Assembly (NCBI GenBank): GCA_963662405.2
Contig: CAXXKT010000001.1
Span: 224,001-288,000, forward strand
From: Syntrophales bacterium
Lineage (GTDB): Bacteria; Desulfobacterota; Syntrophia; Syntrophales; UBA2210
DNA length: 64,000 nt
Direction of reading: 5' to 3'
The notes under the pieces: model-generated
Database searches by the model: none
Seen by the model: the letters and a program-made list of their open reading frames with translations, nothing else
What the model was told of the DNA's origin: nothing
Program-made: the position numbers and the translations under genes
In this document: piece by piece, positions 8,460-26,606 of the stretch
Position numbering within the stretch: position 1 is the stretch's first letter
Layout of the letters: every line of letters begins with the position of its first letter

Positions 8460-9028
8460 TTTCGCTGACTGGCGGTCAGAATATTTGTAACATATTGAAT
8501 ATGAGAAGGTTGTTGAGGAGAGCGGACTGGCGGAGGGGCACACAACCATGCCCGAACAACATGCCTGATTAAATGAAACATCAAACCGGATTGAATGAAA
8601 TGTTAGAAAAAGAGGGGAATAATAATATCACCGTTTGGGCATGAGCCAGCCGAGGAAACCATACCGAACCAAGCGCTTCCCGGGACGCTGAATATGTCGG
8701 CGGCCTGACTGGCATGTTGCCTGATAGCGGCGCAAATAATCGTATCGTTAAGATATTACTGAAAGCAATTTCATAATATTGCTTCAATCGTAATTCTATC
8801 AATTACAGGAGGAAGCAGAACGCAGTAACATACGAGCTCTGCCCCTGTTGCACCAAATCTCACACGTTTAACTACCGCTTGGGATCAGTTTTGGGGAAAA
8901 TCGATGATTGCCGTTTTAAAGTCTCACTGAAATGTGGCATGGGTGAATGAATTCGAAAAAACAACACTTCAAGAAGCGAGTTAGCAAAAGTCACATCTGA
9001 CGGTCTTACAACAAGCCGGATCGCTTCC

Positions 9029-9096
9029 TTCACTACTAACAAATGATTTTGATCAAAGGGAAATGCTGAGCTTGACCGTTGGAAGTGTAGCAAAAC
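9029..9096. repeat. Platform B, downstream half (copy 1)
   Basis: Aligns with 23171-23239; homology stops at the AAC/AAT core. Confidence 0.85.
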
Positions 9097-9162
9097 GTCT
9101 AAGCTCACCGTCGACACTGGAGCGCAACGGAATTGCCATCCGTGTGTAGCACCTCGCGGTTT
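9090..9162 (-). other. Degenerate attC of the R-M cassette
   Basis: Minus strand reads ...CACACGGATGGCAATTCCGTTGCGCTCCAGTGTCGACGGTGAGCTTAGAC-GTT directly after the REase stop; R'' box decayed. Confidence 0.6.
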
Positions 9163-9164
9163 TA

Positions 9165-9905
9165 TCAGCCAAGGCGTGCTGCTTCTGCGGCAATATGCCC
9201 GGCTAAAGCCGTCACAAATGCTTTAAGCCCAGTCATTGATGAAAGTTGAGAAAAATCTCCAGAATCTACTGCGCTACGTTCTGCCGCGATTACAGTGGCC
9301 GTTGTATATAGCTGCTCTTGTACAAGCCGCTGACATAGTAAGTCGTATCGCTTAAGGTACGAGGCTCCCTTAAATTCCTCAAAAACTGGAAAGTGTGGCG
9401 ATGAATCCCGCACAGGACTTCTTGACTTTGCGGTATCTTCAACCATTATTAGCCAACCTACAAACGGGCGAGGTTGTTTCCCAAAAGCTCCCTCACGGTA
9501 AGCCGTCCAAAGATCGTGTGCTGTTCCGATGGCTTCTTCAGTCCGATTGTTAAAATTGTTACCAAAAGAGGGCCCTACTTGGCTTTTTAACTCAATCGCG
9601 GCAATTAGCTCTCCCTTGTACATTACTAGGAGATCCCACAATTTTGTTGGCCGGAAATACCCCGGTAGCGTCAGCATCGCCCGGTTCTGGTGTATCTCAG
9701 CACGAGCTAGCCCATTGGCCTTGATGATGTCGAGCACCAAAGCCAAGAAACCATCCATGTTCTTGCCTGCGGTCACGCCTGCACGTTCCCCCTGGTCGGC
9801 TTTTCCAGATTCAATCTGCTTCTGCTTTGCTGCTTCACGGTTGCCCCAAAATGCCTTTACGGCTTCACGGGATTTTTGTTCGTAATCAGCGAGATCAAGA
9901 GCCAT
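9165..9905 (-). CDS. Type II restriction endonuclease, PaeR7I/XhoI family
   Basis: [33 protein letters not shown]; abuts cognate methylase. Confidence 0.88.
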
Positions 9906-11633
9906 TTATTCTCCATTGCCTCCAAGGGTAGATCGTTCTTCGTGACTCAGGCCATAAAGCTTGAACACGGCTCGGTCGCAAGCTTCTATGTCTCGCTTTA
10001 TGGCAGCATCAGCTAACTCTCGGCGCAGCAGCGCAGGCACATCTGCCCAGGGAGGAATGCGAATCCGGCGTAGGTACTGTGCTTGGAAACGCAGGAACCC
10101 CCCTCGCATCTTCGTTGAATAGGTCGCCACGAAAAGGCGAGTGACAGAGGACAACAGCACCGCCTGCAAAGCCCGCAAATCCCACTCATTAGATGTGACG
10201 TGGTATAGGTTATGATGTGGGTACAGTACCCCGCCTTCAAAGACGATATGCGCTTCGCCCTTTATGTCAGGTATCAAAAGCTTCGGCTTTGCGCCCAGCG
10301 CGGGGGTAATGCGATCAATCGTTCGATACCAGTTGACTGGAGCTTTCTTTGCACAGTGGCGTCCCGCAATCACGTCGCGGCGAGCTTCAAGGTATCGTCT
10401 CAGGCGCGGATAGGCGTCGAGGTCAACCAGACCACCCGATTCGGCAAATGGATTGATGACCCCTTGTCCTCGCCACTTAACCTCACCCGACATGATGTCT
10501 TTTGTCGTCACCAGTCGAATTTTCCGATCGGGCTCAACATCAAGTGCGTCGAAGTCCCCGATGAATGCCTCATCTGCGCCGGTGGCGACACCAATGCCGA
10601 CTTTGCATCCGGTCTCTTCGAGTGATGGGAAACACTGCTCCAGACGGCGAATGAGCGTCATCTGATCGTAAGATCCCAGCAGCCAAGGTTCAGAACCATT
10701 CGTGACACAGGCAAGTTCACGCACCCCTCCAGACTCTCCCTGCAATGAAGGAGCACGGAGCAAGTCCGCCAGTGCAGTCAGGGTTGCCCGGTCAATAACT
10801 GGACGATGCGCAATGCGAGTTACACCCGGCACTTCACGGCTGATGATCGTTATAGCAGGGTACGTAATCACGTCAGAATGGAACGCTGGGGTATCCACCA
10901 TATCGACATAGACTCTCAAGTGAAACCGTTCTGCCACCAGACTCCGAAGTGGCCCACCATATCGGTTCTTCATCCACCGATCTGTACAGATAAAACCCAG
11001 ACTTCCCTTATCCGACAAGAAAGAAAGCGAGCGCTCGATGAAGGCGATATAGATGTCTGCCCTGTCAAACATTGTCTGGTAGCGGGTTCGGTACTCTGCA
11101 AGCAAGGGCGCTGAAATAAGCTCCTGACGGACGTAGGGTGGATTGCCCACAACAAAATTAAATTCTCCTTCCAGTGGAGCGAGCAGAAAATCCCCCTGTG
11201 ACAGCCACCCGTCAACAAGAGCCGCTGCAGTTTTGGCCGCTATCCCCTCGCGTTTGAGAAGGGTTACTATCGCCGCATAGGTGCTGCGAAAAGTATCATG
11301 ATGCAACTCGACGGCCTTGATCGCGTTGCTCAGGTCGTCCAAGGCAGTGCCATTCGGCTTTGCAGCCCGCCAGGCGCGCAGCAACCGCTCGATGATCGGA
11401 AGCAGGAAATCACCACCACCAAACGATGGCTCCAAAATCCGCATTTCATGGAGCGGCTGATCTTCCGTGTAACCAACAAGATCGAGAATGAACTCAACTA
11501 CCTCGCGACGGGTAAATATCGCTCCACGTGCGTCAGTTTCTGGATTTAACGCCAACTGATCTATCGCAGCCTGCACTTTTTTTGTGATGTACTCAGGATT
11601 TGGGAAGTCGATTGTAATTTGTGATGATTGCAA
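9906..11633 (-). CDS. N6-adenine methyltransferase (M.PaeR7I-like, gamma class)
   Basis: [10 protein letters not shown] motif I before VGNPPY motif IV; C-terminal specificity region. Confidence 0.88.
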
Positions 11634-11667
11634 GAAGCTTCCTCTTTGCGTTGGTGTGATATAATAC

Positions 11668-11810
11668 CGCCAACAATGAATATGCCCATTAGGTGTTTCC
11701 CGACCTTTCGTGCAATCCTACTTTATTTCACGAAGAATTAAAACAGAAAAATCTAATGTAAAATCAGTACCAATTGATTTTTTCGATTGGTTATTCTGCG
11801 GCAATAAAGA
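11668..11810 (-). repeat. Platform B, upstream half (copy 1) ending in attI-like core GTTGGCG
   Basis: Aligns with 25681-25825 starting exactly at the AAC of the core. Confidence 0.8.
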
Positions 11811-12194
11811 GTAAAATCCTAAGTTGGTAAAACATAGGAGGAATGGCAATGGCTAATAATAAATACCATTTGAAATGATGTATTGACGGATCGAATCAAA
11901 TAAACGACAGTGCAGGAAGAATGGCGCAGCAAAACACGAGTTCTGCCCCTGCTGTACCAAATCTCACACGTTGCACCTTGTCCTCACCATCGAGTGCGCC
12001 GAGAGCTCACCGATTGTTTATTGAAGTCGGCATTCTGGGGGGAAGTTTCTGTGTAGCAGATTTCTTTCGGTAATGCGCAGGAATCATCAAAGAAAAAAGA
12101 AATCGTGCTGTTTATTGGTGTCACTTACTACTGCTCAGAATAATTCCAGAGGAAAATCGATGAGTACTGATTGAAAGACTCACGGTAAAATCTC

Positions 12195-12340
12195 TTGACA
12201 ATACTTCGTCGGATAGTTAGTTAAGTAAGCGTTTTGATCTTGACGGCTTTACTTTTTTGAACTGCTGTAATAACCAAAGGGGAGATTATGGTCTGATCAT
12301 CAAAGCTCCGTTTCTTAAAAAGAGAGATGGAGCTTTTTTT
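12195..12340 (+). promoter_or_regulatory. Platform A leader copy 1: TTGACA promoter, SD-ATG-GTC-TGA, intrinsic terminator
   Basis: TTGACA 12195, TAG at 17-bp spacing, ATG 12288, hairpin + T-run 12302-12340; homologous to 18182-18327 and 21733-21876. Confidence 0.75.
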
Positions 12341-12406
12341 ATGAATGTCTCGATCGAATTTTAGGTGTTATGACGCACTTTCCCCTGTTTTTAAGATATT
12401 ATACGA

Positions 12407-12429
12407 GATCCATATAAACATTGTTAGAC
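12407..12429 (+). other. attI-like docking site GATCCATATAAACATT/GTTAGAC
   Basis: Matches 21932-21950; GTTAGAC is the exact complement of GTCTAAC of the first attC (13642). Confidence 0.65.
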
Positions 12430-12466
12430 GATACCAGTTATTCAATTCAGAGAAGGAATTTAAATA

Positions 12467-13437
12467 ATGGTCACAGTTTTTTTTCATATTCTCACCGCGA
12501 TGAAGATCTGAGGAATGAATTGGAAATTCATCTTTCAGCTCTTAAACGCCAGGGTGTTATCCAAACTTGGCATGATAGGCGAATTGAAGCCGGCAAAGAC
12601 CTTGACGATGAGATCGATTCAAATATTGAGGGTGCAAATATTATTCTTCTTCTCGTAAGCCCCTATTTTATAGCATCAGATTACTGTTATAATGTTGAAA
12701 TGCAACGCGCGATGGACCGCCATGTTAAAGGTGAAGCCAGAGTGATACCTGTCATCCTTCATCCGTGTGACTGGCAACAGACCCCTTTTGGGAAATTGCG
12801 GGCCACACCGACTGACGGCAAAGCTGTCTCAAAATACCCCAATCAGCATGATGCTTTCCTCTCTATTACCAAAGATATACGCCATGTTGCCGAAGAAATA
12901 ACCGGAGGATCAAAAAACGGAAATAATATTTTGAAACAATCACGGTATGTCAGAACAGAGGATATAGTCCCATCTCAATTTGCTGAAAAGCCAAGATCAA
13001 GCAATCTAAGAGTTCGTAGAGAATTTACCGACATTGAAAGGACAAGATTTCTTTCTGGAGCTTTGGGCTATTTTCAGAAATATTTTGAGAACTCTCTTAT
13101 AGAACTTCAGGCTCGTTCTGTTGGGATCGAAACCGAATTCAGAAAAATAGATGCAAACCACTTCATGGCTATGATTTTCAAGAAGGGTAATCTGGTTAGT
13201 CAATGCAAAATCTGGCTTGCAATGGATTCTTACTCGACAGGAGAGATCCGTTACTCTTCGTCTGTGTCTGTCAATGACAACTCTTGGAATGAATCACTTC
13301 ATGTAGAAGATGATGGCTATGTTTTGGGTCTCAAAAGTAGGGGATTTCATCATATTGGTTCCGATTCAGAAACATTATTGTCTAATGAAGGTGGCGCAGA
13401 ACTTTTTTGGAGTATGCTTTTGAATTCTTTACAATAA
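12467..13437 (+). CDS. TIR-domain protein; natural start out of frame at a T8 tract
   Basis: FFSYSHRD, WHDRRI, LLLVSPYF, SDYCYNVE; AGAAGGA-ATG at 12467 joins the TIR frame only if T8 (12477-12484) were T9. Confidence 0.8.
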
Positions 13438-13454
13438 AATGTAAGGAGAAGGCA

Positions 13455-13601
13455 ATGATTAGACAACGTTTCAGATGCAGAAACTGCGGCCGTAGATTCG
13501 AAACCGAGGTATTTGAACCAGGTGAAGCTAAAGAAAAGGGTTTGCCTTCTGGTCCAGTGAGGTGCCCAGATTGTAGAAGCACTGATGTAGAAAGAATTTA
13601 G
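13455..13601 (+). CDS. 48-aa zinc-ribbon protein
   Basis: CRNC...CPDC; AAGGAG RBS; inside the same cassette as the TIR gene. Confidence 0.7.
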   Translation: MIRQRFRCRNCGRRFETEVFEPGEAKEKGLPSGPVRCPDCRSTDVERI

Positions 13602-13641: not shown

Positions 13642-13713
13642 GTCTAACAAGTCGCTGGAGAATCGACGGGAACACGCTGGTGCGTTTCCCGCGTCTCAGC
13701 TCCATCGTTATAC
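13642..13713 (+). other. attC site 1
   Basis: GTCTAAC...GTTATAC, L boxes GCTGGAGA/TCTCAGC pair with one extrahelical base; 72 bp. Confidence 0.85.
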
Positions 13714-13752: not shown

Positions 13753-16194
13753 ATGAAACTTGACGATTGGAAAGCAGAAACAAAGACGCGATTACCCACT
13801 AGCGCGGTTTATAGTGTTCTAAAAGAGAAGTGTAACAGGGACTCAGCTGGGCATCAAGTGTTGGAACTCGTTGATACCGCTACCTACTATGCATATCAAA
13901 GAACCAAAAGTATAATCCGGCATATGGGAGAGTTTACTCTCCATGATGGAGACCATCTATTCCGTGTGCTGTCGCTGCAGGAACGGTTGCTTTCCAATGG
14001 GCAATTGCGTTCGCTCAATGTTCCTGAACTCATGTTAATGATTTTGTCGGCGTTTTTTCATGATATTGGGATGGCGCCTGATGAACAAGACGTAATAGCA
14101 TGGAAAAAGATATGGGATACTACACCTCAATTTGAGAGCGGTACGGAAGAATTGGAGTATCAAAAATTTGAAAGGTTCTATTTCGCGAGGCCTGATGATC
14201 GCGATAGGGTTGAGCAATGCCTTCGCCGCGGAGATCATACTGGGGCAGACTGTGCTAAAGCTCATGTGGTTAGTGATTATATAAGGACGACACATGCGGA
14301 GCGAGCTAGGCAAATCATTAAGAAAGATTGGATGAATAAGATCGTATATCGCGATACTGACCTTACGGTTGAGTTTGCAGGGATTTGCTTCAGCCATAAC
14401 GAAGATCCACTTTCTTTGCTGGATCTTGATCCCGGTTATTTGTGTGGCCCTGATCTTTATGCAAACTTGCAACTTGTGGCCATTCTTTTAAGACTATCAG
14501 ATATTCTGGATTTCGATGCCAAAAGAACACCATCTATCCTTTTTTCTCACTTGTATGTGCGAAATCCAGTTTCCATTAGTGAATGGAACAAACATCGTTC
14601 GGTAGAGGCGTGGAGCATAACACCTGAAATTTTACAATTTCATGCAAAATGCCGTCATCCGGCTATTGAGGCGTCGATAAATGCTTTTTGTGATCTCATA
14701 GATATCGAGTTGGGTGCATGCAATAATATTGTCGCATCAATAAATAAATTCGATCGTCGTTTTTCTTCATCTGCTATTATGCTCCCCCTAAGAGTTGATC
14801 GAACCAAGGTTGAAACGGTGAAAGATATAGAAGGAAAGCCGGTTTACCTATATCGACAGACGCAGTTCAATCTAAGCAAAAAGCAAGTTATAGATTTGTT
14901 GATGGGAACGAAACTCTACGGTAATCCAGAGGTGGCTTTGAGAGAACTGATCCAGAATTCAATTGATGCTTGCCTGTTAAGGCAGGCACTAGAAGCTTCT
15001 TGGAAAACCAATTACACTCCGAGAGTAAATATTAAATATTATTCTATGGATGGGCAAGATATTCTTGAGGTAGAAGACAATGGAACCGGTATGGATCAGC
15101 ACATTATCGATGCATATTATTCAAAAGTAGGGTCTTCCTTCTATAAGTCTTCCGAGTTCTATGAGCTGAAGTCTCAGGCCAGAGCTAGTTTTACGCCAAC
15201 ATCAAGATTTGGAATTGGGATCTTATCATGTTTCATGGTCGCGGATACGCTAATTGTCGATACAAGACGTGTATATGGACCGCATGAATCAAGTAAACCG
15301 TTGAATGTTACTATCGAAGGACAGGAAAGCATTTTCTGGATTAAATCCGGCAGCCTGTCAACTCCGGGCACTACAACTAAATTATTCCTTCGAAAAACAG
15401 GAAATCCCTGGGATAGGATGGATGAAAACGAATTCATTACATCGGTGGAAGGAATTATTTCAAATCCGCCATTTGAAATAAAGATAGAGACATCTTCTCA
15501 TAGCAAGTCCAGGGATGCCTCAAGCTTTCTCCAAGTGCATGCAAATAACTTAGAAAATCGTTCATGGGAGGAACACGATAACGTTCGGAAGATATCTATC
15601 GAATTTGATGATCCCGCAAGAGGCTTTGTCGGTTCCGCTGTTGTTGCCATATTAGAGAGTCATGGCTTCCCAGTGCCTAAGTTAGAAATGACTTCTCAGA
15701 CAGTCGATATTAATGGTGAACCGTACGAACTTGGAAAGAGCATCGCTATTATTGAGAATGAAATAGAAGAGTCAGCAACAACTATTTCAATAGACGAAAA
15801 TGGAGATATTGATCAATCGAATTCATATCGTTCACTGAACAAGTCCATATCTCAGCTATCTCTGCATGGTATTGAGGTGCCTACCACATTATTTCCTGCA
15901 TCGTGGAGGATGCAAAAGAATCAGGTTAAGCTTTCATGGCCATTCCCTATAATATTGGTGGTGGATGTTTGTGGAGACGCTGATCTAGATCTCAATTCGT
16001 CGCGTACGCAGATAATAATGTCGGAAAAATGGGTCGAGTTTGAAAAACGGCTGTCATTTGAAATATGTTCGAAGCTTGCAGACTCTGTGTCTCGGGATTA
16101 CTGGGAAAAACTTAGAAATGTGTTGTTGTCAAATACGAAAAACCCAATCTTTTCTCAGAGTGTAAACGAAGTTGAAAAAAGCTACAACGTATAA
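13753..16194 (+). CDS. HD-domain (HD-CE-like) + Hsp90/GHKL ATPase fusion, putative defence effector
   Basis: FTLHDGDH and FFHDIGM; LRELIQNSIDA, EDNGTGM, FGIGILS. Confidence 0.8.
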   Translation: MKLDDWKAETKTRLPTSAVYSVLKEKCNRDSAGHQVLELVDTATYYAYQRTKSIIRHMGEFTLHDGDHLFRVLSLQERLLSNGQLRSLNVPELMLMILSAFFHDIGMAPDEQDVIAWKKIWDTTPQFESGTEELEYQKFERFYFARPDDRDRVEQCLRRGDHTGADCAKAHVVSDYIRTTHAERARQIIKKDWMNKIVYRDTDLTVEFAGICFSHNEDPLSLLDLDPGYLCGPDLYANLQLVAILLRLSDILDFDAKRTPSILFSHLYVRNPVSISEWNKHRSVEAWSITPEILQFHAKCRHPAIEASINAFCDLIDIELGACNNIVASINKFDRRFSSSAIMLPLRVDRTKVETVKDIEGKPVYLYRQTQFNLSKKQVIDLLMGTKLYGNPEVALRELIQNSIDACLLRQALEASWKTNYTPRVNIKYYSMDGQDILEVEDNGTGMDQHIIDAYYSKVGSSFYKSSEFYELKSQARASFTPTSRFGIGILSCFMVADTLIVDTRRVYGPHESSKPLNVTIEGQESIFWIKSGSLSTPGTTTKLFLRKTGNPWDRMDENEFITSVEGIISNPPFEIKIETSSHSKSRDASSFLQVHANNLENRSWEEHDNVRKISIEFDDPARGFVGSAVVAILESHGFPVPKLEMTSQTVDINGEPYELGKSIAIIENEIEESATTISIDENGDIDQSNSYRSLNKSISQLSLHGIEVPTTLFPASWRMQKNQVKLSWPFPIILVVDVCGDADLDLNSSRTQIIMSEKWVEFEKRLSFEICSKLADSVSRDYWEKLRNVLLSNTKNPIFSQSVNEVEKSYNV

Positions 16195-16250
16195 CAAGGT
16201 TTTTACAGGGATCGCAAAAACCGCGCGTTTGCTGAAAAACAACGTTATGC
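16189..16250 (+). other. attC site 2
   Basis: GTATAAC (contains the gene's TAA)...GTTATGC; TTTTACAG/CTGAAAA L boxes; 62 bp. Confidence 0.8.
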
Positions 16251-18090: not shown

Positions 18091-18152
18091 ACATAACATC
18101 TTGCAGATAAGGACGTGCAAAACTCCCCGCGCCTCATAGCATTGCGTTAATG
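18091..18152 (+). other. attC site 3 (partly degenerate)
   Basis: ACATAAC 3 bp after stop...GTTAATG; imperfect hairpin; 62 bp. Confidence 0.65.
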
Positions 18153-18181
18153 ATTACTGAAAGTCTCACGGGGGAAATTTC

Positions 18182-18327: not shown

Positions 18328-18381
18328 GTTTTGTGTGAACGCCCTAGAATAATACTGTTAACAGTAGAAAACGGGTGACAT

Positions 18382-20703
18382 ATGAACCCTACTTTTATTG
18401 ATATTCACATTCATACATCGGAGAATCCAGACAAACTCAACCCAAACTATGACGTTAACTCATTGTATGAAAATGTGACCAAGGTCGCGCATGAAGCAGA
18501 TACACTAATATCATTGTCAGATCATAATGTTATAAATGAAAATGCCTACCTAAAAGCCTTACATAAATTCCCCAATATGCTTATCGGATGTGAGTTGCAC
18601 ATTCGAAACTATCAGAATAAACCTCCCTATCATTGCCATATTCTTTTCGGTACTCCAACGATAGATCACGAAACTATTTCGAAGATCAATGAATCCCTGC
18701 TAAAATTATATCCGAAGAAGGTTGTTAAAAATGCAGATACAAACATTCCAGAAATACAAGACATCATAAAAGAATTTGAGGAATACGACTTTCTGGTTCT
18801 TCCTCATGGTGGACAGTCCCACTCAACTTTTGACATATCCATTCCTGATGGCGTTATATTCGACAGCAGTCTTGAAAGAAGTATTTATTACAACACCTTT
18901 GACGGATTCACTGCAAGAAGCAACAAAGGTCTAGAAAAAACAATTGAATATTTCAAGCGCCTCGGAATTAACGATTTTGTCAATCTCATTACTTGCACGG
19001 ACAACTACAATCCCCAAAAATATCCTAGTCCAAAAACAGATGAATATGAAGAATATATCCCTACTTGGATGAACTCATTGCCAACATTTGAAGGCCTAAG
19101 ACTTGCTCTATCAGAATCATCTCGGCTTTCGTACCAAAGTGACCCCCCCGGTAGATGGTCGGAATACATCAAATCGGTGCACTTGTCGAATCCCAGAATA
19201 GAAATCGACGTCAATTTGAGTGAGGGCTTAAATGTGGTTATTGGTGGTTCATCAAGTGGAAAGACTCTTTTTGTAGATTCCTTGTATTGCAAGATCGTTA
19301 ACAATTATGAGGAGAATGTTTATGTCAAGTCGCAATATCCTGTCAAGGATATAGACGTCAACAATCCTTCAGGATTGACTCCACATTATATCAACCAAAA
19401 CTATATTACTAAAATTGTCGATACCAAGAACAATGAGACGAGAATTGATGATATTGAGATAATAAAAACCCTATTTCCAGACGATAACGAGGCAAAACTC
19501 AACATCCAACGGTCATTGCATGACTTCAGAGAGTGTTTCAAGGAACTCCTAAGTAGTGTGAAAGCAATAGAGGAGATTCAGAGTTCCCTGAAAAGGATAC
19601 CCTTCCTTTCGCAGTTGATATTGTTGGCAAAAGTAAAAGATAACGTGATTGAGAAACTTCTGCCATCTCCAGAGCAAATACAATTAATTCATATTTCCAA
19701 AGCTTTGCACCACTCATATTCTGAACATCTTGAACAAATAGATAACTTTTTGACAAATAATCCGGTCATTGACCACGATCCATCTTTGGTTATGAGGTTA
19801 AAAGATGAATTGGATCTAGCGTTTTCCTTCTCTCATTCTGAGGAACTTGTCAGAGCCATAATCGAGAAAAAGAAAGCCGACCAGAAAGCTTGGCTTCTCC
19901 AGTTGAACAAAGAAGGACAGCAAAAAAAAGATTCCTTTAACGATCTGACACGATTTTTTACCAATTACAACATCGCAGTCAAGAAATTCAATAACTGCTT
20001 AATAAGGCTTGGTAAATTCGATACAAAGGCGCAATCAAACACAATTAAAGCAATGGGACATATATTGTATATCGAAAACCAATTTTGCATAAATAGCAGT
20101 ACGTTTATCGATATTCTGAACCAATTTCTAAAAAAGGAAAATCAGATTGAATCGATGGACACTTTACACCCAGAGTCGCTATTCTTCGCCAATTTCAAGC
20201 AAAAGCCTAAGATCAGCGATTATGATGATTTGGAGTCTAAGGTGTACGCTAAATTCGAAGGCCTTAATAAGAAATCATTCAAAATCACTACTAGCGACGG
20301 AAGGGATTTTGATAACCTAAGTGCTGGTTGGAAAACATCTGTAATATTGGACTTACTCTTAGGCTATGAAGAGGATTTTGCTCCCATAATAATCGATCAA
20401 CCCGAGGACAATCTTGCGAATCCTTATATAAACAGGGGGCTGATCAAAGCTATCAAGGATATCAAACCAAAGAAACAAATAATTCTAGTGTCGCATAATG
20501 CCACGATACCAATGTTGGGTGATGCTCAGACTGTTGTTGTTTGCAAAAACGAAGAAAATAGGATTGAAATAAGATCCGCCAAACTTGAGGGTAACATAAA
20601 CTCAAAAAAGGTTGTCGATCATATTGCCGAGTTGACAGATGGCGGCAAGGTATCGATCAAAAAGAGGGTCAAGAAATACAACCTTAGAAAGTTCAGGGAA
20701 TGA
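18382..20703 (+). CDS. PHP-domain + ABC-type ATPase fusion (Ppl/TrlF-like defence protein)
   Basis: DIHIHT, SDHN, GCE, PHGG, CTDN; GGSSSGKT, LSAGWK, IIDQPEDNL, VSHN. Confidence 0.85.
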   Translation: MNPTFIDIHIHTSENPDKLNPNYDVNSLYENVTKVAHEADTLISLSDHNVINENAYLKALHKFPNMLIGCELHIRNYQNKPPYHCHILFGTPTIDHETISKINESLLKLYPKKVVKNADTNIPEIQDIIKEFEEYDFLVLPHGGQSHSTFDISIPDGVIFDSSLERSIYYNTFDGFTARSNKGLEKTIEYFKRLGINDFVNLITCTDNYNPQKYPSPKTDEYEEYIPTWMNSLPTFEGLRLALSESSRLSYQSDPPGRWSEYIKSVHLSNPRIEIDVNLSEGLNVVIGGSSSGKTLFVDSLYCKIVNNYEENVYVKSQYPVKDIDVNNPSGLTPHYINQNYITKIVDTKNNETRIDDIEIIKTLFPDDNEAKLNIQRSLHDFRECFKELLSSVKAIEEIQSSLKRIPFLSQLILLAKVKDNVIEKLLPSPEQIQLIHISKALHHSYSEHLEQIDNFLTNNPVIDHDPSLVMRLKDELDLAFSFSHSEELVRAIIEKKKADQKAWLLQLNKEGQQKKDSFNDLTRFFTNYNIAVKKFNNCLIRLGKFDTKAQSNTIKAMGHILYIENQFCINSSTFIDILNQFLKKENQIESMDTLHPESLFFANFKQKPKISDYDDLESKVYAKFEGLNKKSFKITTSDGRDFDNLSAGWKTSVILDLLLGYEEDFAPIIIDQPEDNLANPYINRGLIKAIKDIKPKKQIILVSHNATIPMLGDAQTVVVCKNEENRIEIRSAKLEGNINSKKVVDHIAELTDGGKVSIKKRVKKYNLRKFRE

Positions 20704-20936
20704 GCATGAAAATGCATTTTTCAAGAAGCGATACTGGCGAAACTGTGGTGCAACTTATCGAAAATGGGGATGCGTTACCTTTCAATTACATTACACTTGT
20801 GAAGCATCTGATCGTTAATGCGAATCTGGAAGAGACAACATTTGATGAAGAGTTTTCCTCTGAAGAACAGGCTGCTGTGAATTCAATGGCTGAACGTCTT
20901 GTAGAGGCATGTAAAAAAGAACCGAAGGCCAGCTGA
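20700..20936 (+). CDS. Small acidic hypothetical protein coupled to the PHP-ATPase
   Basis: ATGA overlap with upstream stop. Confidence 0.6.
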   Translation: MSMKMHFSRSDTGETVVQLIENGDALPFNYITLVKHLIVNANLEETTFDEEFSSEEQAAVNSMAERLVEACKKEPKAS

Positions 20937-21148
20937 GTTGCAGGGTACCTGTTTATTACCAGAATTATACAATAACTCGATCCCGATTAGTTTTCTAGAC
21001 TTCAGGAAAAATTTAATAAACCATGGACTTAGGCTGTTCTATTATGATCTGCTCGGGCAATTCCTAGACGTACGCGATCTTTAACTTCTGGCCGACGTAG
21101 ATCCGATTCCGGAACCTTATCTTGTTAACTTGAATCAGAAATATTGAA

Positions 21149-21469
21149 ATGCCAACTTTTTTAGAAATGAAGATTGATAACGATATTGAAAATATTCTTA
21201 AAGATACCATTAGAGATATCTTTGAATGTAAGGACGAAGAAAAAAGACTGGCCATTGATGTATTCTTTGAGTTGGCAAAAGATTGTTCGATCCCATCAAA
21301 TGTTTTGGATAAAATTCTTTATTATTTTATAAATTTTCATGGACCTAATAAAGCTGGGAATAGAGTAGCAGCTAATATTTTTAAACAGAAGTTTGATGAG
21401 TCATATAACAGCTCGGATTTTAGCCAACTTCTAGCAATGATGAAGCATGATCAGGATAAAGGATCATAA
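21149..21469 (+). CDS. Hypothetical protein
   Basis: 106-aa ORF in AT-rich DNA; no motif recognised. Confidence 0.5.
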   Translation: MPTFLEMKIDNDIENILKDTIRDIFECKDEEKRLAIDVFFELAKDCSIPSNVLDKILYYFINFHGPNKAGNRVAANIFKQKFDESYNSSDFSQLLAMMKHDQDKGS

Positions 21470-21732
21470 AGAGGACAAATAAGATAGGGGCAGAGGCTTT
21501 TTGACTGAACATTGCTAATTACTAAAAAGAAATCTACAAATTGTGGTGATTACTTGTATTTGTAGTCAATAAATGTGGGAAATGGATTCACGGCTTGGCT
21601 TTCAATCCGTACTGTTCAGGCAGGATAAAGGAAAATGCCAGAGTGTCGGTTATTGACGCCACCTACTACTGCTCAGAATAATTCAATTAGAAAATCAACA
21701 ATTACTAATTGAACGTCTGATGGTAAAATCTC

Positions 21733-21876
21733 TTGACAATACATTATCATAGAGTTAGCTAGAAAATGATTTTGGTCTTGATTGTTTCTGCTTGTGAGCA
21801 GCTGTAGCCAAGGGGGATTATGGTATGATCATTAAAGCCCTGTTTCTCAACGCGAGAGATGGGGATTTTGTTTTTT
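21733..21876 (+). promoter_or_regulatory. Platform A leader copy 3
   Basis: TTGACA 21733, AGGGGGATT-ATG-GTA-TGA at 21820, terminator hairpin 21834-21876. Confidence 0.72.
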
Positions 21877-21931
21877 GTGGACAGGTTATGTTGATATCGA
21901 TGTTGCCGGATGAAGAATGGGTTTTTATCAG

Positions 21932-21954
21932 GATCCAGATAAACATTGTTGAAC
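21932..21954 (+). other. attI-like docking site GATCCAGATAAACATT/GTTGAAC
   Basis: Near-identical to 12407-12425 up to GTT; 16 bp upstream of cassette gene. Confidence 0.6.
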
Positions 21955-21970: not shown

Positions 21971-22999
21971 GTGGAAGATTTACATCAAGAGTTTTTGAAA
22001 ACACTCAATGAGGTGATTGAGAAAAATCCAGAAAAAGCAGATGAGATTGATATTGAGCAACTCATAGCAGATGTAACCCCAGAAGCCGTTCGCTTAATAA
22101 AAAGCTCTCTTCTAAAATCCGCGAAAAAGATGCTTAAGGAGAGGCGAAAGTTAGCTAAAGGCTTCGAAAAGCGGAACATAAAACGCTGGTCTAAAGCATT
22201 CGATTTATTAGAGTCTCACATTGTTATATGTACAGAGGCAGGAGAAGAATTCAACTCATCGTATAGACCAACTGCTGCTGAGGAAAACAATTTAGTATTT
22301 GATATTGTTGTCAGACATCATGCAAGAGCCTGTCATATTGCACAGGAAATTCTATGTCTCTTAAAGGCAGGTTTTGCTGATGCTGCTCATGCCAGATGGC
22401 GTGCTCTCCATGAAGTAACCGCGACAGGAATGTTCATAGCTAGACATGGTCATGATTGTGCAGAGAGATTCTATTTTCATGACATTGTTGATTCTTACGA
22501 CGGAATGCTTGAGCACAAAAAGTACGAAGATCGGCTCCAGGAAAAGGCACCCTCCCAAGAAGAGCTCGATAGCTGCAAAGTAGAATATGACGAACTGATT
22601 GCACGATACGGTAAGAAATTTGCAGATCATTATGGTTGGGCTTCATACTTGTTCCCAAAACATAGGCGAGTAGGTTTTACAGCAATAGAAAAGAATGTTG
22701 GCTTGGATCATATGCGCCCCTACTATAGGTGGGCTAGCCAGAATATACATTCGGGCTCTAAAGGAATGAGAAACCGTCTCGGACTGTGTGAGGCAAAAGA
22801 CGATATTCTACTGGTTGGGCAAAGTAATTCAGGAATGACAGATCCTGCTCATGCAACAGCTATTAGTTTAAACCAAATTACTTGTGCTCTTTTGATGCTT
22901 GAGCCTACGTTAGATCATATTGTGATCATGAAAATAGCTGATGAATTTCAAAATGATGTGGGGGAAGCATTCCTAGAGATAGAGCGAAATGATTCATAA
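21971..22999 (+). CDS. DUF5677-like protein (possible HEPN-type fold)
   Basis: ARWRALHE and YRWASQNIH patterns; family recognised from memory only. Confidence 0.6.
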   Translation: MEDLHQEFLKTLNEVIEKNPEKADEIDIEQLIADVTPEAVRLIKSSLLKSAKKMLKERRKLAKGFEKRNIKRWSKAFDLLESHIVICTEAGEEFNSSYRPTAAEENNLVFDIVVRHHARACHIAQEILCLLKAGFADAAHARWRALHEVTATGMFIARHGHDCAERFYFHDIVDSYDGMLEHKKYEDRLQEKAPSQEELDSCKVEYDELIARYGKKFADHYGWASYLFPKHRRVGFTAIEKNVGLDHMRPYYRWASQNIHSGSKGMRNRLGLCEAKDDILLVGQSNSGMTDPAHATAISLNQITCALLMLEPTLDHIVIMKIADEFQNDVGEAFLEIERNDS

Positions 23000-23061
23000 C
23001 AAATCAATTAAGCGGAAAATCAGGCCTGCGGCCTATTTTCCGCTTATCTCAGTCGTTAATA
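22994..23061 (+). other. attC site 4
   Basis: TCATAAC (contains stop)...GTTAATA; strong stem TAAGCGGAAAAT/ATTTTCCGCTTA; 68 bp. Confidence 0.8.
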
Positions 23062-23170
23062 ATTTTTGAAAGAAATCCTTGCAATTGTTTCAATATTTAT
23101 TTTATCGGTTACAGGAAGAATCGCGCAGCAAAAGTATTTCTCGGACACTCCTGCGGCGATTTTCCCACTC

Positions 23171-23239
23171 TTCACCTACTAACAAATGATTTCGATCAAA
23201 GGGGAATACTGAGGATTACCGTTGGAAGTGTAGTAGAAT
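23171..23239. repeat. Platform B, downstream half (copy 2)
   Basis: Aligns with 9029-9096. Confidence 0.85.
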
Positions 23240-23292
23240 ACCAGTTTCACTGGCACCAACTGTTTGGCGTCCAGTGCAAAAAGATGTTAGCA
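23233..23292 (-). other. attC site 5 (DUF3800 cassette; R' core mutated GTT>ATT)
   Basis: Minus strand TGCTAAC...CACTGGACGCCAA-ACAG-TTGGTGCCAGTG...ATTCTAC; 60 bp. Confidence 0.7.
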
Positions 23293-23302
23293 TTTCATCC
23301 TA

Positions 23303-24525
23303 GTACCATGTAACATAATATGTTTCGTATTTATAAAAGGTATGATAGACTGGCGGCAAACCAACAGAGGAGGTTGCCATGTCGCCAAGATATCGAGTAA
23401 CCCTTACCAAAGAAGAACGCAAAGAGCTTGAGGCAATGACCCATAGAGGAAAGACCCATGCCCGAAAATTCATCCATGCCCGCGCATTACTTTTGTGCGA
23501 TGCCGGCTCTGACGGTCCGGCATGGAACGTGTCCGATGTTGCAGAGGCGCTTGGGGTGTCGAGCCGTTCGATCGAACATCTCAAAAAGCGCTTTGTTGAA
23601 GAGGGGCTTGAAGCAGCTCTCGAACGCAAGGCACGGGAAAAGCCTCCGAGAGACATCATTTTTGACGGTGCATTTGAGGCACGATTAGTCGCATTGGCCT
23701 GTTCAGACACTCCCGAAGGACATCGTCGCTGGACGGTCAGATTGCTTGCCGACAAAGCTGTCGAGCTTGGCATTGCCGATTCCGTATCACACATGACCGT
23801 ACAGCGGATTTTAAAAAAAACGAACTTAAGCCTCACATCAGCAAATACTGGAAAATCCCTCCCGAAGGGAGCGCGGCCTTTGTAGCATGCATGGAAGATG
23901 TTTTGGAGATATATCATCTGCCCTATGATCCCGACTATCCGGTTGTCTGCATGGATGAATCCTGCAAGCAACTGATAGGTGAAGTTCGAGAGCCGATGCC
24001 ATGCGCACCGGGAAGGCCGATGCGAACAGACGACGAGTATGTCAGAAACGGGGTAGTGGAAATATTTATGGAAGTTGAGCCCCTTGCTGGCAGAAGACAT
24101 GTGGCGATCACGGAACATCGAACAAGAAAGGATTGGGCGATGCAGACCAGGCAGATGCTTGATGAACGCTATCCCAGCGCCCTCAAGGTTCGTCTGGTCA
24201 TGGACAACCTGAACACCCATACAATCGCCTCACTCTACGAAACATTCAAACCCGGGGAAGCCAGGCGTTTAGCGGAACGACTCGATATCCATTATACGCC
24301 TAAACACGGAAGCTGGCTGAATATGGCAGAGATCGAGCTCAGCGCCCTGAAAGGACAATGCCTTAATCGCCGGATTCCCGACATAACGACCATGCGAACC
24401 GAAGTGGCCGCATGGGAAAAAGATCGAAACAACAGCGCGAAAAACATTGTATGGCAATTTACTACTCCTGATGCTCGCATTAAGTTGAAGCGCCTTTATC
24501 CGAAGCTATAAACGTTACATGGTAC
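23303..24525 (+). mobile_element. IS630-family insertion sequence
   Basis: 12-bp terminal IRs GTACCATGTAAC, TA duplication in a CTAG target. Confidence 0.92.
23379..24511 (+). CDS. IS630 transposase, two ORFs joined by -1 frameshift
   Basis: HTH orfA 23379-23885; DDE orfB (MDE, MDNLNTH, WLNMAEIE); A8 slippery run 23813-23820. Confidence 0.88.
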
Positions 24526-24538
24526 TAGTATCTTTAAC

Positions 24539-25657
24539 TCATTGTTTTTCTAGAAAATCACCAATTTTTTCAAAATGTATTTTTTCCATTTTTTCGATTG
24601 TTTTTTTCCCTTCGTCAATTTGTTCATCACTTACGTCACACTTTGAGAGTTTATATAACCACCCTCTGGCAATAATTTCAGAGGAAAGCCTTGAGATATA
24701 GAACGATTCTGTAACATCGAGTAATTTATTTTTTAAACTAGCGTTTGCTATTTTATCGTTTCTTTGTGAAAGCCATAAAAAAATATCAACGGCCTGAAGA
24801 CTCACGATCTGCTTTGACATTGCCAGTGAAAATTGTCCAAGATCGTAATCAACTTGATCAACCTGTAAGCCCAATCCACTTGAATTGTGTTCAAGCCTGA
24901 ATTTCTGAAATATTTTATGGTATTCCCTCATTGTAGAACCAAATTCTGACTGAGAATGATGAACAAAGGCTTTTGGTTTTGTATTGTTTTCTTTACAGAA
25001 TTTGTGAACAGCCTGAATTAAACTTGAAAAAGCAACCATGTTGGGAGTATGCTCCTTGTATGACTTTTTTGTTTGGCTTGCCAATAGTGTAATTTCATCA
25101 GGGTATTTAAGTGCAAAATTAAGACCTTCAGTAGCAACTTGGTGGAGTCTTTTATCAACACTTATAAGATCAAGCCGTTGCAATACGATGTTTATCACTG
25201 ATCTAATTCCAGTAAAATCATCTTTGAGATAATAATCCCAGAAATTCTTTTTGTCTTCTTCAAAAAGAAGGTCATCAAAAAGAATACATAACGTATGTCT
25301 AAAAAACTCGTGATTATACCATAACCACCGTGCACCTTTATTTTCGTAAGAGTCGAAAAGACTATCAACAAATTTCGTCACTGATAAATAAGGCTTTTCA
25401 ATGACCGTTAAGTGAAAAACCCATTTTATATTTTCGAGGAGATCTAAAAATGAAGTTGCTATTCTTTCTACAAGATGAGGTTTAATTTCGTTCGCATGAA
25501 GTCTATCTACACCCAATTCAAATTTATACTTTTCAGCAACTTCATTTAGCAAAGGTTCAGTATCAATTTCCGAGATTATTGCTCCTTGAAAGTAAAAAAG
25601 TGGCTCATTAAAAATGTGGCGTCCTGAATGCCCAGACTCATCGGCGTAAATATACAT
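24539..25657 (-). CDS. DUF3800-like protein (RNase H-like fold)
   Basis: N-terminal YADESG and C-terminal LQAVD motifs. Confidence 0.7.
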   Translation of the reverse strand: MYIYADESGHSGRHIFNEPLFYFQGAIISEIDTEPLLNEVAEKYKFELGVDRLHANEIKPHLVERIATSFLDLLENIKWVFHLTVIEKPYLSVTKFVDSLFDSYENKGARWLWYNHEFFRHTLCILFDDLLFEEDKKNFWDYYLKDDFTGIRSVINIVLQRLDLISVDKRLHQVATEGLNFALKYPDEITLLASQTKKSYKEHTPNMVAFSSLIQAVHKFCKENNTKPKAFVHHSQSEFGSTMREYHKIFQKFRLEHNSSGLGLQVDQVDYDLGQFSLAMSKQIVSLQAVDIFLWLSQRNDKIANASLKNKLLDVTESFYISRLSSEIIARGWLYKLSKCDVSDEQIDEGKKTIEKMEKIHFEKIGDFLEKQ

Positions 25658-25680
25658 TTTTATATTCGTTTCTTATCGGA

Positions 25681-25825
25681 TGTTAACAATTAATATACTT
25701 GGTGGGTATTTTCCAAACTTTTGTACAACCCTACTTCAATTCATGAAAAATGAAAAGCGGAAGTTTCGTCGTGAAATCAAGTACAATTGGATTTTGACCA
25801 ATGGGTATTTTGTGGTAATGAAAAA
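25681..25825 (-). repeat. Platform B, upstream half (copy 2) ending in attI-like core GTTAACA
   Basis: Aligns with 11668-11810; core complements attC5 TGCTAAC with one mismatch. Confidence 0.8.
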
Positions 25826-26606
25826 TGGCAGCAGTTCAACAAATACTGTTTGAAGTAGCGCATTGCCCTGAAAATTACTGAACACTCACTTACAGGAAGG
25901 AGCAGATAATCTACATGAGCCTAAAATGTACAGCCCGAGTTGTCCTACCTTTCAACCCACATTTAATAAGGTTGACCGACAAATTGTGGTGATGACTTGT
26001 ATTTGAAGTCTCGCACATCTTTGATGAAAGCAGTTTCATAGATTTCAGAAGGAAGGTGTCTGGATTTTACGAAATCCAAATAATAAACTTTCCAGGCTTA
26101 GAGTGCTTCGGGCCGTTGCATTTGGCCTCTGCGCGGTGGTTGTGAAACATTTGAGAAATAGATGGACTTGAAAGGAGTGGCCACATGAAAAAGGGTGGCC
26201 CTCTCACAGAATCGAAAAGACCACCCATCAGGAGGGACAGCACAAGGTCAATCCAAGTACTACTCCCGGTGGTAAGAAGCGGTAATAAGAGGTGGCTCGA
26301 TCGCCTGCAAAGGGAGAGTTAAGCCTGCCCGTAATCATCCGGTCCACCTTTTCATCAATCCGCTGTTGTTGCGCCTCTCCTCTCAATAATGATTCTTTGA
26401 TCCAGACGACATTTGCCGTCACGTCTTTCTTGACGCCGTCGATCCGGACTTCGTGCTGGGCGGAAAGGCCGTACACCATGTATTCCTCAGGCCGCATGCA
26501 GGAGAGAGATCTCCCGCGTTATTCAATCGCCCGATCGCGTAATGCCCGGAGTTTTTGCTCCCCACCCCGTCCACTGTCCGGGCCTATAGCCCTTTGAGAA
26601 GGTTTC

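What the first reader, a model, noticed from the sequence alone, without database searches (positions are those of the whole stretch)
8747..26010. Defence island built from integron-type cassettes docked in repeated platforms, with no intI, inside a phage-like element
Seen: six attC-like hairpins (9090, 13642, 16189, 18091, 22994, 23233), each closely following a cassette gene (one separated by an IS), and each cassette starting at a GTT core. The cassettes are not one array. They sit in at least four separate docking sites of two duplicated non-coding families (A on +, B on -), ordered A-right, B-right <cassette< B-left, A-left >cassettes> A-right, and this order recurs (8747-12429 versus 21660-25825). 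No integron integrase is in the window. Established: attC/attI recombination by IntI, and defence roles of R-M, TIR, OLD and Ppl proteins. Inference: a multi-site, convergent cassette-capture scaffold that lets a mobile element collect immunity genes using an IntI supplied in trans.
Basis: partly seen in the sequence, partly recalled or inferred. Interest (0 to 1): 0.92.

Follow-up and report, generated by a model that had tools for sequence, protein, structure and literature searches.

The report
Integrase-less integron defence arrays on satellite
A 17-kb anti-phage gene island inside a tRNA-integrated, phage-like mobile element is largely built from integron-type gene cassettes sitting behind their own copies of the integron docking site, although the integron enzyme is encoded two million bases away.

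Summary
The observation largely holds. They hit nothing else in the 64 kb at E below 0.5. The sixth (9090) is not significant (E 3).

Two "platform" copies end in an 11-nt core identical to the attI core beside the genome's intact intI (C1:2.21 Mb). The B family ends in a related core on the other strand. Cassette boundaries fall exactly at GTT.

The platforms are not private to this island. The A repeat is a unit with a conserved TTGACA hexamer, a two-codon mini-ORF and a terminator. It has 49 copies in this genome and occurs in 17 of 24 related genomes.

The island lies in the variable arm of a ~40-kb element bounded by 48-nt tRNA-Arg repeats. Three sister copies carry the same platform repeats with different cargo.

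No IS was found, and two modules fail the boundary rule.

Attachment sites at the head of integrase-less arrays in a prophage, and defence cassettes in integrons, are both published, and this scan already reported the same system elsewhere in this genome. I rate it a new variant of a known kind.

The parts
4487..4563 (+). tRNA-Arg(CCT). Its last 48 nt (4516-4563) form the left copy of the element's direct repeat (attL).
   Evidence: tRNA; 48-nt exact repeat with 44415-44462
4600..8746 (.). Conserved left arm of the element: acyl-CoA ligase-like gene 5083-7095(-) and two small membrane-protein ORFs.
   Evidence: 4147 nt are 99.8% identical to C1:2626651-2630797, the left flank of sister element cp3
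8747..8932 (+). X1 repeat plus a truncated 5' piece of an A unit; left edge of the variable island.
9028..9095 (.). B-right copy 1, the conserved ~68-nt module abutting the 3' end of the minus-strand cargo.
   Evidence: 89% identical to 23170-23233; further copies at C1:881781-881850 and in G003
9090..9165 (-). Weak attC candidate after the restriction gene; not significant.
   Evidence: E 8.7; E 3; fold -10.7 kcal/mol
9165..11633 (-). Type II restriction-modification pair: XhoI-family endonuclease 9165-9905 and methyltransferase 9906-11633.
11634..11810 (-). B-left copy 1. Read on the minus strand it ends in ...ATATTCATTGTT| (plus-strand AACAATGAATAT at 11672-11683), and the family homology stops there.
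11900..12060 (+). X2 repeat (dispersed; 92% identical to C1:2642164-2642284).
12061..12345 (+). A1 unit: TTGACA at 12195-12200, SD plus ATG-GTC-TGA mini-ORF, terminator hairpin 12302-12336.
12346..12425 (+). attI-like site 1; core TAAACATTGTT at 12415-12425, with the cassette boundary after G12423.
   Evidence: (84% over 57 nt to C1:2214332-2214388)
12421..13601 (+). Cassette 1 cargo: ThsB-like TIR protein (ORF 12421-13437) and a small zinc-ribbon ORF ending at 13601.
   Evidence: (ThsB model 370 bits)
13642..13713 (+). attC of cassette 1 (R'' GTCTAAC, R' GTTATAC).
   Evidence: E 7.5e-6; E 0.19; R'' is complementary to GTT|AGAC at the attI-like site; 58 of 72 nt identical to an attC in G003
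13753..16194 (+). Cassette 2 cargo: HD-CE plus HSP90/GHKL-type ATPase protein.
16189..16250 (+). attC of cassette 2 (R'' GTATAAC, R' GTTATGC).
   Evidence: E 4.7e-5; E 8e-4
16276..18087 (+). Cassette 3 cargo: OLD-family ATPase-TOPRIM nuclease.
18091..18152 (+). attC of cassette 3 (R'' ACATAAC, R' GTTAATG); the A2 unit starts at its R'.
   Evidence: E 4e-4; E 0.028
18150..18345 (+). A2 unit (5'-truncated), terminator 18291-18325, followed by ...AATACTGTT|AACA.
18382..21469 (+). Ppl/TrlF-like ATPase 18382-20703 and small ORFs 20700-20936 and 21149-21469; no attC detected after them.
21536..21885 (+). Y repeat (21536-21599) plus A3 unit (21600-21885; terminator 21838-21864).
21886..21950 (+). attI-like site 3; core TAAACATTGTT at 21940-21950.
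   Evidence: the boundary rule is not met here
21971..22999 (+). DUF5677 protein.
22994..23061 (+). attC (R'' TCATAAC, R' GTTAATA).
   Evidence: E 1.4e-4; E 1.1e-5
23062..23238 (.). X3 repeat (23062-23175) and B-right copy 2 (23170-23238).
23233..23292 (-). attC on the minus strand (R'' TGCTAAC; the R' position reads GTA, not GTT).
   Evidence: E 1.8e-3; E 2.6e-5
23300..25657 (-). Minus-strand cargo: 306-aa protein of no known family and a DUF3800 protein.
25658..26015 (.). B-left copy 2 (minus-strand core ...ATATTAATTGTT|; plus-strand AACAATTAATAT at 25685-25696) and the Y2 repeat 25843-26015 at the junction with the phage-like module.
26228..44338 (.). Phage-like module: terminase large subunit 27358-29280(-), candidate small subunit, ParB-methyltransferase, primase-helicase 33097-35505(-), CI-like repressor 41225-41743, IS200-type gene, integrase 43244-44338(+). 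No capsid, portal or tail family was found.
   Evidence: four full paralogous copies in the genome
44415..44462 (+). Right copy of the 48-nt tRNA-derived direct repeat (attR).

Best explanation
The island is a mosaic of integron-type cassette arrays that have their own attachment sites but no integrase. Formally these are clusters of attC sites lacking intI, and here they are headed by attI-like sites. The island occupies the variable arm of a ~40-kb phage-like, probably satellite-type, element integrated at tRNA-Arg.

Shown:
- Five attC sites of the same type as those in the genome's two integrons.
- attI-like cores identical or close to the real attI.
- Cassette ends exactly at GTT.
- An intact intI 2 Mb away.
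- One cassette present, 100% identical, both in an integron array and behind an orphan attI-like site.

Inferred:
- The chromosomal IntI acts in trans. It excises cassettes as circles by attC x attC recombination and inserts them at the attI-like cores of A-type sites (plus strand) and B-type sites (minus strand), so that new cassettes enter next to the platform and push older ones outwards.
- The A unit upstream supplies transcription, and its mini-ORF and terminator gate read-through into the cargo.
- Because the platforms ride on a multi-copy mobile element, the defence cassettes (TIR, HD-CE ATPase, OLD, and perhaps restriction-modification and others) travel with it.
- Not every module is a cassette. 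Some cargo is simply an A-driven operon, probably exchanged by homologous recombination between the dispersed repeats.
For: 1. attC models built from non-window sites hit the claimed positions and nothing else in 64 kb. As a positive control, R1 recovered its 5 training sites and two further sites at E about 3e-7 in the true array.

2. The attI-like core TAAACATTGTT occurs 8 times in 3.8 Mb. Seven of these share the longer GATCC..ATAAACATTGTT context: the real attI, two in the window and four elsewhere.

3. Boundary rule. The four bases after GTT at a cassette's start must be complementary to the R'' of that cassette's own attC.
- It held at 7 junctions I read in the true integron and failed at one.
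- At 14 orphan attI-like junctions checked, it was 4/4 at 7: window 12415, C1:2668801, C1:1955934, C1:2642838, C1:306614, C2:54191, C1:122190.
- It was 3/4 at 4, and 1/4 or less at 3.
- Chance gives 4/4 once in 256.
- Within the window, the attC-to-attC junctions are 4/4 (13713 to 16189) and 3/4 (16250 to 18091).

4. A 764-nt cassette is 100% identical after attC C1:28982-29041(-) of integron 2 and after the attI-like site at C2:54191, with identity starting at GTT.

5. The arms are conserved and the cargo is not. The left arm is 99.8% identical to sister element cp3 and the terminase is 93-94% identical. The cargo differs entirely: AbiE, an SMC-like ATPase, Gabija-like genes and DUF488 in cp3; HD-GYP, TIR and GGDEF-EAL proteins and a two-gene cassette in cp2.

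6. In another species (G003), a B-left core, two different cassettes, an attC with 58 of 72 nt identical to window 13642, and B-right occur in the same order.
Against: - No recombination was observed. Public runs holding the island are kept as contigs only, and the joints seen there are explained by paralogous repeat copies.
- The 9090 hairpin is not significant.
- The boundary rule fails at attI-like site 3 (GTT|GAAC against R'' TCATAAC) and at the restriction-modification module. The bases after that GTT are shared with a G007 copy that lacks the GTT, so that junction may not be a cassette end.
- The attC at 23233(-) has GTA where GTT is expected.
- No attC follows the Ppl-like module.
- A units are often truncated at different points in sister islands, and A occurs in genomes where no intI was found (G006, G007). 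Homologous recombination among repeats therefore clearly contributes.
- No empty platform was found: 1 chance match in 38 genomes.
- The sigma-70 consensus scan did not call a promoter in A.
Confidence: 0.75

Rival explanations
1. Relic arrays. Pieces of a chromosomal integron (attI plus cassettes) were carried into the element by rearrangement, IS activity or homologous recombination between the dispersed A, X and Y repeats. They are no longer, or never were, loaded in place, and the repeats matter only as recombination substrates and promoters.
For: - A, X and Y are dispersed, with 49 A loci, and are truncated at varied points in sister islands.
- IS3, IS200 and IS110 genes lie in the sister islands, and an IS3 sits between intI and attI in the true integron.
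- A occurs in genomes without a detected intI.
- Two window modules fail the boundary rule.
- Cury et al. 2016 list rearrangement among the origins of such arrays (passages).
Against: - Each of at least 7 orphan attI-like sites carries a different first cassette whose R'' matches its own junction 4/4. This requires separate IntI-type insertions at these sites, not one copied fragment.
- Three B units share both flanks but hold different cassettes.
Confidence: 0.18
2. Another recombinase, not IntI, moves the cargo: the element's own tyrosine integrase (43244-44338) or one of the genome's other tyrosine recombinases.
For: The element encodes an integrase. The genome has many tyrosine recombinase genes, with 27 matches to the IntI model of which only 2 loci are over the cut-off.
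Against: - The sites are of integron type in every respect tested: an attC model built from arrays beside intI, a core identical to the attI next to intI, and crossover at G|TT.
- The element's integrase has its own 48-nt tRNA att repeats.
Confidence: 0.05
3. The hairpins are ordinary terminators or chance palindromes, and the repeats are unrelated regulatory DNA, with no link to integrons.
For: A crude AAC...GTT hairpin scan finds dozens of such hairpins across the window. A strict RYYYAAC/GTTRRRY search finds none.
Against: - Model hits at E from 1e-5 to 0.03 lie only in the island.
- Junction complementarity, homology to the true attI and an identical cassette in a true array also argue against it.
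Confidence: 0.02

Closest known systems
CALIN, clusters of attC sites lacking an integron integrase (Cury et al. 2016, PMC4889954; passages read)
   Same: There are at least two attC sites within 4 kb with no intI nearby, and a complete integron lies elsewhere in the same replicon. The authors already suggest that IntI encoded elsewhere may mobilise such cassettes.
   Different: Here the arrays are headed by recognisable attI-like sites, each with its own leader unit. There are several short arrays in both orientations within one island, and they sit on a multi-copy phage-like element.
Complete integron and CALIN in Shewanella prophage M16-3, each starting with a Shewanella-type attI (Qi et al. 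2023, PMC9892861; abstract and section 3.3 read)
   Same: An integrase-less cassette array that begins with a copy of the host-type attI, inside a prophage-like region next to a terminase gene.
   Different: That prophage also carries its own intact intI, whereas here intI is 2 Mb away. This genome has about ten attI-like sites of at least two sequence types, on four or five paralogous elements, and the cargo is anti-phage defence.
Defence systems carried as integron cassettes (Darracq et al. 2024, bioRxiv 10.1101/2024.07.02.601686, passages read; Kieffer et al., bioRxiv 10.1101/2024.07.02.601719, search listing only)
   Same: Anti-phage genes packaged as cassettes ending in attC sites.
   Different: Those papers stress small, streamlined systems in arrays beside intI. 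Here cassettes reach 1.3-2.5 kb and lie in integrase-less arrays on a phage-like element of an anaerobic lineage whose nearest named records are Syntrophus MAGs.
IntI-mediated cassette insertion outside att sites (bioRxiv 10.1101/2022.09.11.507474; search listing with start of abstract only)
   Same: Cassettes placed in the genome away from the integron by the integrase.
   Different: The landing sites here are not arbitrary genomic sites. They are conserved, repeated copies homologous to the true attI.
Defence hotspots of temperate phages and satellites such as P2 and P4
   Same: Conserved element arms flank a fast-changing block of defence genes next to the packaging genes.
   Different: At least part of the turnover here bears the marks of integron site-specific recombination.

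Membership tests
CALIN / integron cassette array | At least two attC sites close together (within 4 kb) on one strand | tested here: met
   13642, 16189 and 18091 on the plus strand, each within 2.6 kb of the next; also 22994(+) and 23233(-)
CALIN / integron cassette array | No integron integrase nearby | tested here: met
   TIGR02249 matches over the cut-off lie only at C1:2211990-2212934 and C1:30608-31120. The window holds only a phage-type integrase with weak partial matches.
CALIN / integron cassette array | attC architecture: R''...AAC, imperfect paired arms, GTT...R' | tested here: met
   Model alignments and folds for five sites. 23233(-) has GTA in place of GTT, and 9090(-) is not significant.
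CALIN / integron cassette array | Cassette junctions: the bases after GTT are complementary to the R'' of the cassette's own attC | tested here: inconclusive
   Across the six window junctions: 4/4 at two, 3/4 at two, 0/4 at two (DUF5677 and restriction-modification)
CALIN / integron cassette array | IntI-dependent excision and insertion | not testable with these tools
   Only contigs of public runs could be laid on the island, and they cannot show rare circles
Complete integron | intI adjacent to attI and the array | tested here: not met
   the window is 1.9 Mb from the intact intI
attI site | Sequence homology to the site beside intI where the first cassette joins | tested here: met
   Core identical over 11 nt at 12415-12425 and 21940-21950. 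A1's 57 nt are 84% identical to C1:2214332-2214388. The B cores are only similar.
attI site | Binding and recombination by IntI | not testable with these tools
   -
Prophage or phage satellite | Integrase plus flanking direct repeats at a tRNA | tested here: met
Prophage or phage satellite | Capsid, portal and tail genes (needed for a complete prophage) | tested here: not met
   None were found among the 25 proteins scanned against PHROGs or the Pfam scans of 26228-44338. This fits a satellite or a decayed prophage. Three copies of the same size and order favour a satellite.
Thoeris | ThsB (TIR) together with ThsA | tested here: not met
   ThsB-type model scores 370 bits for 12421-13437, but none of the 13 island proteins matched a ThsA model
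Type II restriction-modification | Endonuclease plus cognate methyltransferase side by side | tested here: met
   XhoI family 357 bits; PADLOC REase_II 434 bits and MTase_II 896 bits

The most novel reading that the evidence does not exclude
This lineage runs a distributed integron. One chromosomal IntI services about ten attI docking sites of two or three sequence types, most of them preceded by a dedicated mini-ORF and terminator leader. Several of these sites sit in the variable arm of a family of phage satellites. Satellites and chromosomal integrons would then trade anti-phage cassettes, some over 2 kb, by site-specific recombination, with the leader making cassette expression conditional.
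Probability: 0.4. Interest if true: 0.75.

Novelty: new variant of a known kind. Interest (0 to 1): 0.6.

Why it matters
Integrons are usually pictured as one integrase with one docking site and one promoter. Integrase-less arrays are treated as leftovers or passive reservoirs.

Here a single genome holds about ten docking-site copies. Many have their own leader unit and a first cassette with matching junctions, and several lie on a multi-copy phage-like element that carries different defence genes in each copy.

If IntI really serves these sites in trans, integron recombination is one way that phage satellites renew their defence cargo, and the number of cassette positions next to a docking site in a cell can be multiplied without multiplying the integrase.

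The A unit is also a candidate new regulatory RNA motif, widespread in the family and absent from Rfam.

Tried and rejected
- Strict RYYYAAC...GTTRRRY search: 0 hits in the window. It is too strict for these sites.
- My own AAC/GTT hairpin scanner was not discriminating, giving 26-27 hits per strand across the window.
- A MAFFT alignment of 8 attC sites of unequal length was structurally poor, so I started from 5 sites of similar length.
- Rfam: no family for the A unit at gathering score or at E up to 1 (best match Yfr10 at 25.8 bits against a 43-bit cut-off).
- Distant terminase relatives in named MAG records (3 loci, 61-64% identity) showed no platform repeats and no attC.
- In 5 related genomes the only terminase hit was 37% identical, so the element itself was not found outside this genome.
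- Sister copy cp4 showed no platform repeats apart from one 58-nt match, and no attC, in the 20 kb beside its terminase.
- Search for an empty B platform (B-left core within 30 nt of B-right): 1 match in 38 genomes, a chance hit inside a coding region.
- Whole-genome model scans scored only 150 of 409 and 150 of 1239 candidates and missed known sites, so I made no genome-wide attC count.
- Model R3 missed the G003 attC that has 58 of 72 nt identical to window 13642. The models therefore give false negatives.
- B-right as a homologue of the 5' part of A: local alignment score 12 against a shuffle mean of 8.7 and maximum of 20, so not significant.
- Public runs: 3 rows from one sample hold the island and no RNA holder is listed. 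They are laid as contigs only. The four joints and the loose ends fall in the A and Y repeats and match paralogous loci, for example the loose end at 21950 reads like C2:54191. This gives no information on excision or expression.
- The protein atlas gave nothing usable for the 306-aa protein.
- Supplementary tables of the integron papers were not available. They may list similar arrays.

Full report
**What is in the window.** The stretch 8747-26010 has lower G+C (35-50%) than its surroundings (52-63%). It encodes:
- a XhoI-type restriction enzyme and its methyltransferase (9165-11633, minus strand);
- a ThsB-like TIR protein with a small zinc-ribbon ORF;
- an HD-CE plus GHKL-ATPase protein;
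- an OLD-family ATPase-TOPRIM nuclease;
- a Ppl/TrlF-like ATPase;
- a DUF5677 protein;
- on the minus strand, a 306-aa protein of no known family and a DUF3800 protein.

**The mobile element.** To the right lies a phage-like module with terminase large subunit, a weak small-subunit match, ParB-methyltransferase, primase-helicase, a CI-like repressor and an integrase. No capsid, portal or tail family was found.

The last 48 nt of tRNA-Arg(CCT) (4516-4563) recur exactly at 44415-44462, just after the integrase. The island and the phage-like module therefore form one integrated element of about 40 kb.

**Are the hairpins attC sites?** The genome (3.8 Mb in 3 contigs; the window is C1:224001-288000) has two intI loci:
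- an intact intI at C1:2211990-2212934 (471 bits, cut-off 265);
- a second one broken by a stop codon at C1:30608-31553.

Both are followed, in the same orientation, by cassette arrays.

I built covariance models only from attC sites of these arrays and of other non-window loci: R1 from 5 sites, R2 from 8, R3 from 27. I ran them over the whole window on both strands without filters.

R3 gives 13642-13713 (E 7.5e-6), 22994-23061 (1.1e-5), 23233-23292 minus (2.6e-5), 16189-16250 (8e-4) and 18091-18152 (0.028). The next best match is E 2.5. R1 and R2 agree, except that 13642 is weak or absent with them.

Five of the six claimed sites are therefore supported, and none of the remaining 47 kb gives a hit. 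The sixth, 9090-9165 minus, scores E 3 to 8.7 and remains only a positional candidate. As a control, R1 recovered its training sites and further true sites in the array beside intI.

**Are the platforms docking sites?** In the true integron the first cassette joins at ...GATCCGTATAAACATTGTT|CAGG, with an IS3 element inserted between intI and this site.

The 11-mer TAAACATTGTT occurs 8 times in the genome. Seven of these share the longer context: the true attI, window 12415 and 21940, and four other loci. The 57 nt before the core of A1 are 84% identical to the true attI region. Integron 2 has a variant core, ATAAACACCGTT.

The B-left family, read on the minus strand, runs up to ATAYTMATTGTT and loses similarity right after GTT in all three copies that have it.

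**Boundary rule.** A cassette linearised at G|TT starts with the remainder of its own R', so the four bases after GTT must be complementary to the R'' of its own attC.
- True integron: this held at seven junctions that I read and failed at one.
- Window: attI-like 1 GTT|AGAC with GTCTAAC (4/4); GTT|ATAC with GTATAAC (4/4); GTT|ATGC with ACATAAC (3/4); B-left 2 GTT|AACA with TGCTAAC (3/4).
- Window failures: attI-like 3 (GTT|GAAC against TCATAAC) and the restriction-modification module.
- All 14 orphan attI-like junctions checked in the genome: 7 are 4/4, 4 are 3/4 and 3 fail. Chance gives 4/4 once in 256.

**A cassette shared between an integron and an orphan site.** One 764-nt cassette is 100% identical behind an attC of integron 2 and behind the attI-like site at C2:54191, with identity beginning at GTT. 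This is the most direct trace of cassette traffic between an integron and an orphan site.

**What the long repeats are.** The A family is not special to this island. BLAST finds 49 loci on all three contigs, and 43 copies of its core. It is found in 17 of 24 other genomes of the same family, in 7 of 7 of the same genus, and in 0 of 16 genomes from other families of the order. These include G006 and G007, where no intI was found.

The unit contains:
- a TTGACA hexamer conserved in 20 of 20 aligned copies;
- a Shine-Dalgarno sequence and a two-codon ORF, with AUG-NNN-UGA kept in 34 of 43 copies and at least five different middle codons;
- a hairpin followed by a T-run. Its 10 pairs are kept in 36-43 of 43 copies, with GC/UA and other exchanges. 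These hairpins are the three best terminator-like sites of the island.

Rfam has no such family. The consensus promoter scan did not call a promoter there, so the promoter is inferred.

A units also stand in front of genes that are not cassettes, for example HD-GYP sensor proteins and a Gabija-like pair in sister islands. I read A as an expression and regulation module. Only the short attI-like core that follows some copies is the docking site.

**Differently loaded copies.** The phage-like module has four full copies in the genome (terminase 93-100% identical) and a fragment on C2. Three of the other copies (cp2, cp3, cp5) have islands on the terminase side with the same X, Y and A repeats. 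The fourth (cp4) does not, within the 20 kb examined.

The window's left arm (4600-8746) is 99.8% identical to that of cp3, yet the cargo between the arms is entirely different. Next to the terminase end, cp2 has an attI-like core, a two-gene cassette and an attC with a 4/4 junction. cp3 keeps only the attC and a gene remnant, and the window has neither.

B units (B-left core, cargo, attC, B-right) occur twice in the window and once at C1:881029-881850 with a small gene and the 109-nt ORF-less cassette that is repeated in the true integron. One more occurs in another species, G003, with two other cassettes and an attC that has 58 of 72 nt identical to window 13642.

An empty platform was not found.

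**What remains open.** No recombination event was observed. The public runs that hold the island are available only as contigs, and their joints fall in paralogous repeats.
- The Ppl-like module has no detectable attC.
- The DUF5677 junction is probably not a cassette end, because its first bases are shared with a G007 copy that lacks the GTT.
- A units in sister islands are truncated at various points.

Homologous recombination among the dispersed repeats must therefore contribute to the mosaic alongside site-specific insertion.

**Comparison with what is known.**
- By definition these are CALINs (Cury et al. 2016, passages).
- A CALIN that starts with a host-type attI inside a prophage has been described in Shewanella M16-3 (Qi et al. 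2023, section 3.3).
- Defence systems as integron cassettes have been described (Darracq et al., passages; Kieffer et al., listing only).
- IntI-mediated insertion outside att sites is reported (listing only).
- Earlier notes of this scan describe the same system at other places in this genome: integrase-less arrays on a satellite, about ten docking sites, and a repeated leader. My calls agree with those notes independently.

New relative to print, as far as my two literature searches show:
- the multiplicity and two sequence types of orphan attI sites;
- their pairing with a dedicated leader unit;
- convergent arrays within one island;
- their place in the variable arm of a multi-copy satellite-like element;
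- cassettes of up to 2.5 kb.

**Verdict.** This is a real feature. It is a new variant of a known kind. Interest 0.6.

Noticed in passing
window 7762-8460 and 44652-45349: A 700-nt segment with two small membrane-protein ORFs is repeated in inverted orientation (87% identity), once inside the element and once just outside attR. Further copies lie at C1:701708-702408, C1:2378805-2379602 and C1:502037-502879.
   Followed up: partly
window 12421-12490: The TIR ORF as listed starts at a TTG inside the attI-like core. An ATG at 12467 with a good AGAAGGAA ribosome-binding site is one frame off, ahead of a run of T. This may be an assembly indel at low coverage, a frameshift, or a start codon supplied by the docking site.
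   Followed up: partly
L009 3394-3538, 5452-5596 and other copies; C1:881640-881790: An ORF-less cassette of about 143 nt with a 109-nt attC (CCTGAAC...GTT) is repeated at least five times in the true integron array and also sits in a B unit elsewhere.
   Followed up: partly
L009 886-3394 (C1:2211885-2214393) and C1:28900-31553: Both integrons have intI in the same orientation as their cassettes. In the first, an IS3-family element separates intI from attI. The second intI is split by a TAA stop.
   Followed up: partly
window 21536-21567 and 25979-26010: A 32-nt stretch (94% identical) is shared between two contexts that differ on both sides. In sister islands it lies inside a continuous Y2-Y-A unit, so these look like breakpoints of that unit.
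   Followed up: partly
window 45969-47693: Group II intron: reverse transcriptase-maturase ORF 45969-47396(-) and Rfam domains D1-D4 at 47404-47693(-), just outside the element.
   Followed up: no
window 42322-42762: An IS200-type (Y1) transposase gene lies between the repressor and the integrase of the phage-like module.
   Followed up: no
window 5083-7095 and C1:699555-701543: The acyl-CoA ligase-like gene in the element's left arm has a 77% identical chromosomal paralogue, followed there by the same 700-nt membrane-protein segment. The left arm may be captured host DNA.
   Followed up: no
C1:122040-122260 (L021): A copy with the A 5' region and TTGACA runs straight into a B-type core (GTATATTAATTGTT|AGCC) without the mini-ORF and terminator. 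It carries a cassette with a 4/4 junction (attC C1:123446-123502).
   Followed up: partly
window 8663-8753: A weak attC-like match (R3, E 2.5) ends in GTT at 8747-8749, about where the 99.8%-identical left arm gives way to the variable island.
   Followed up: no
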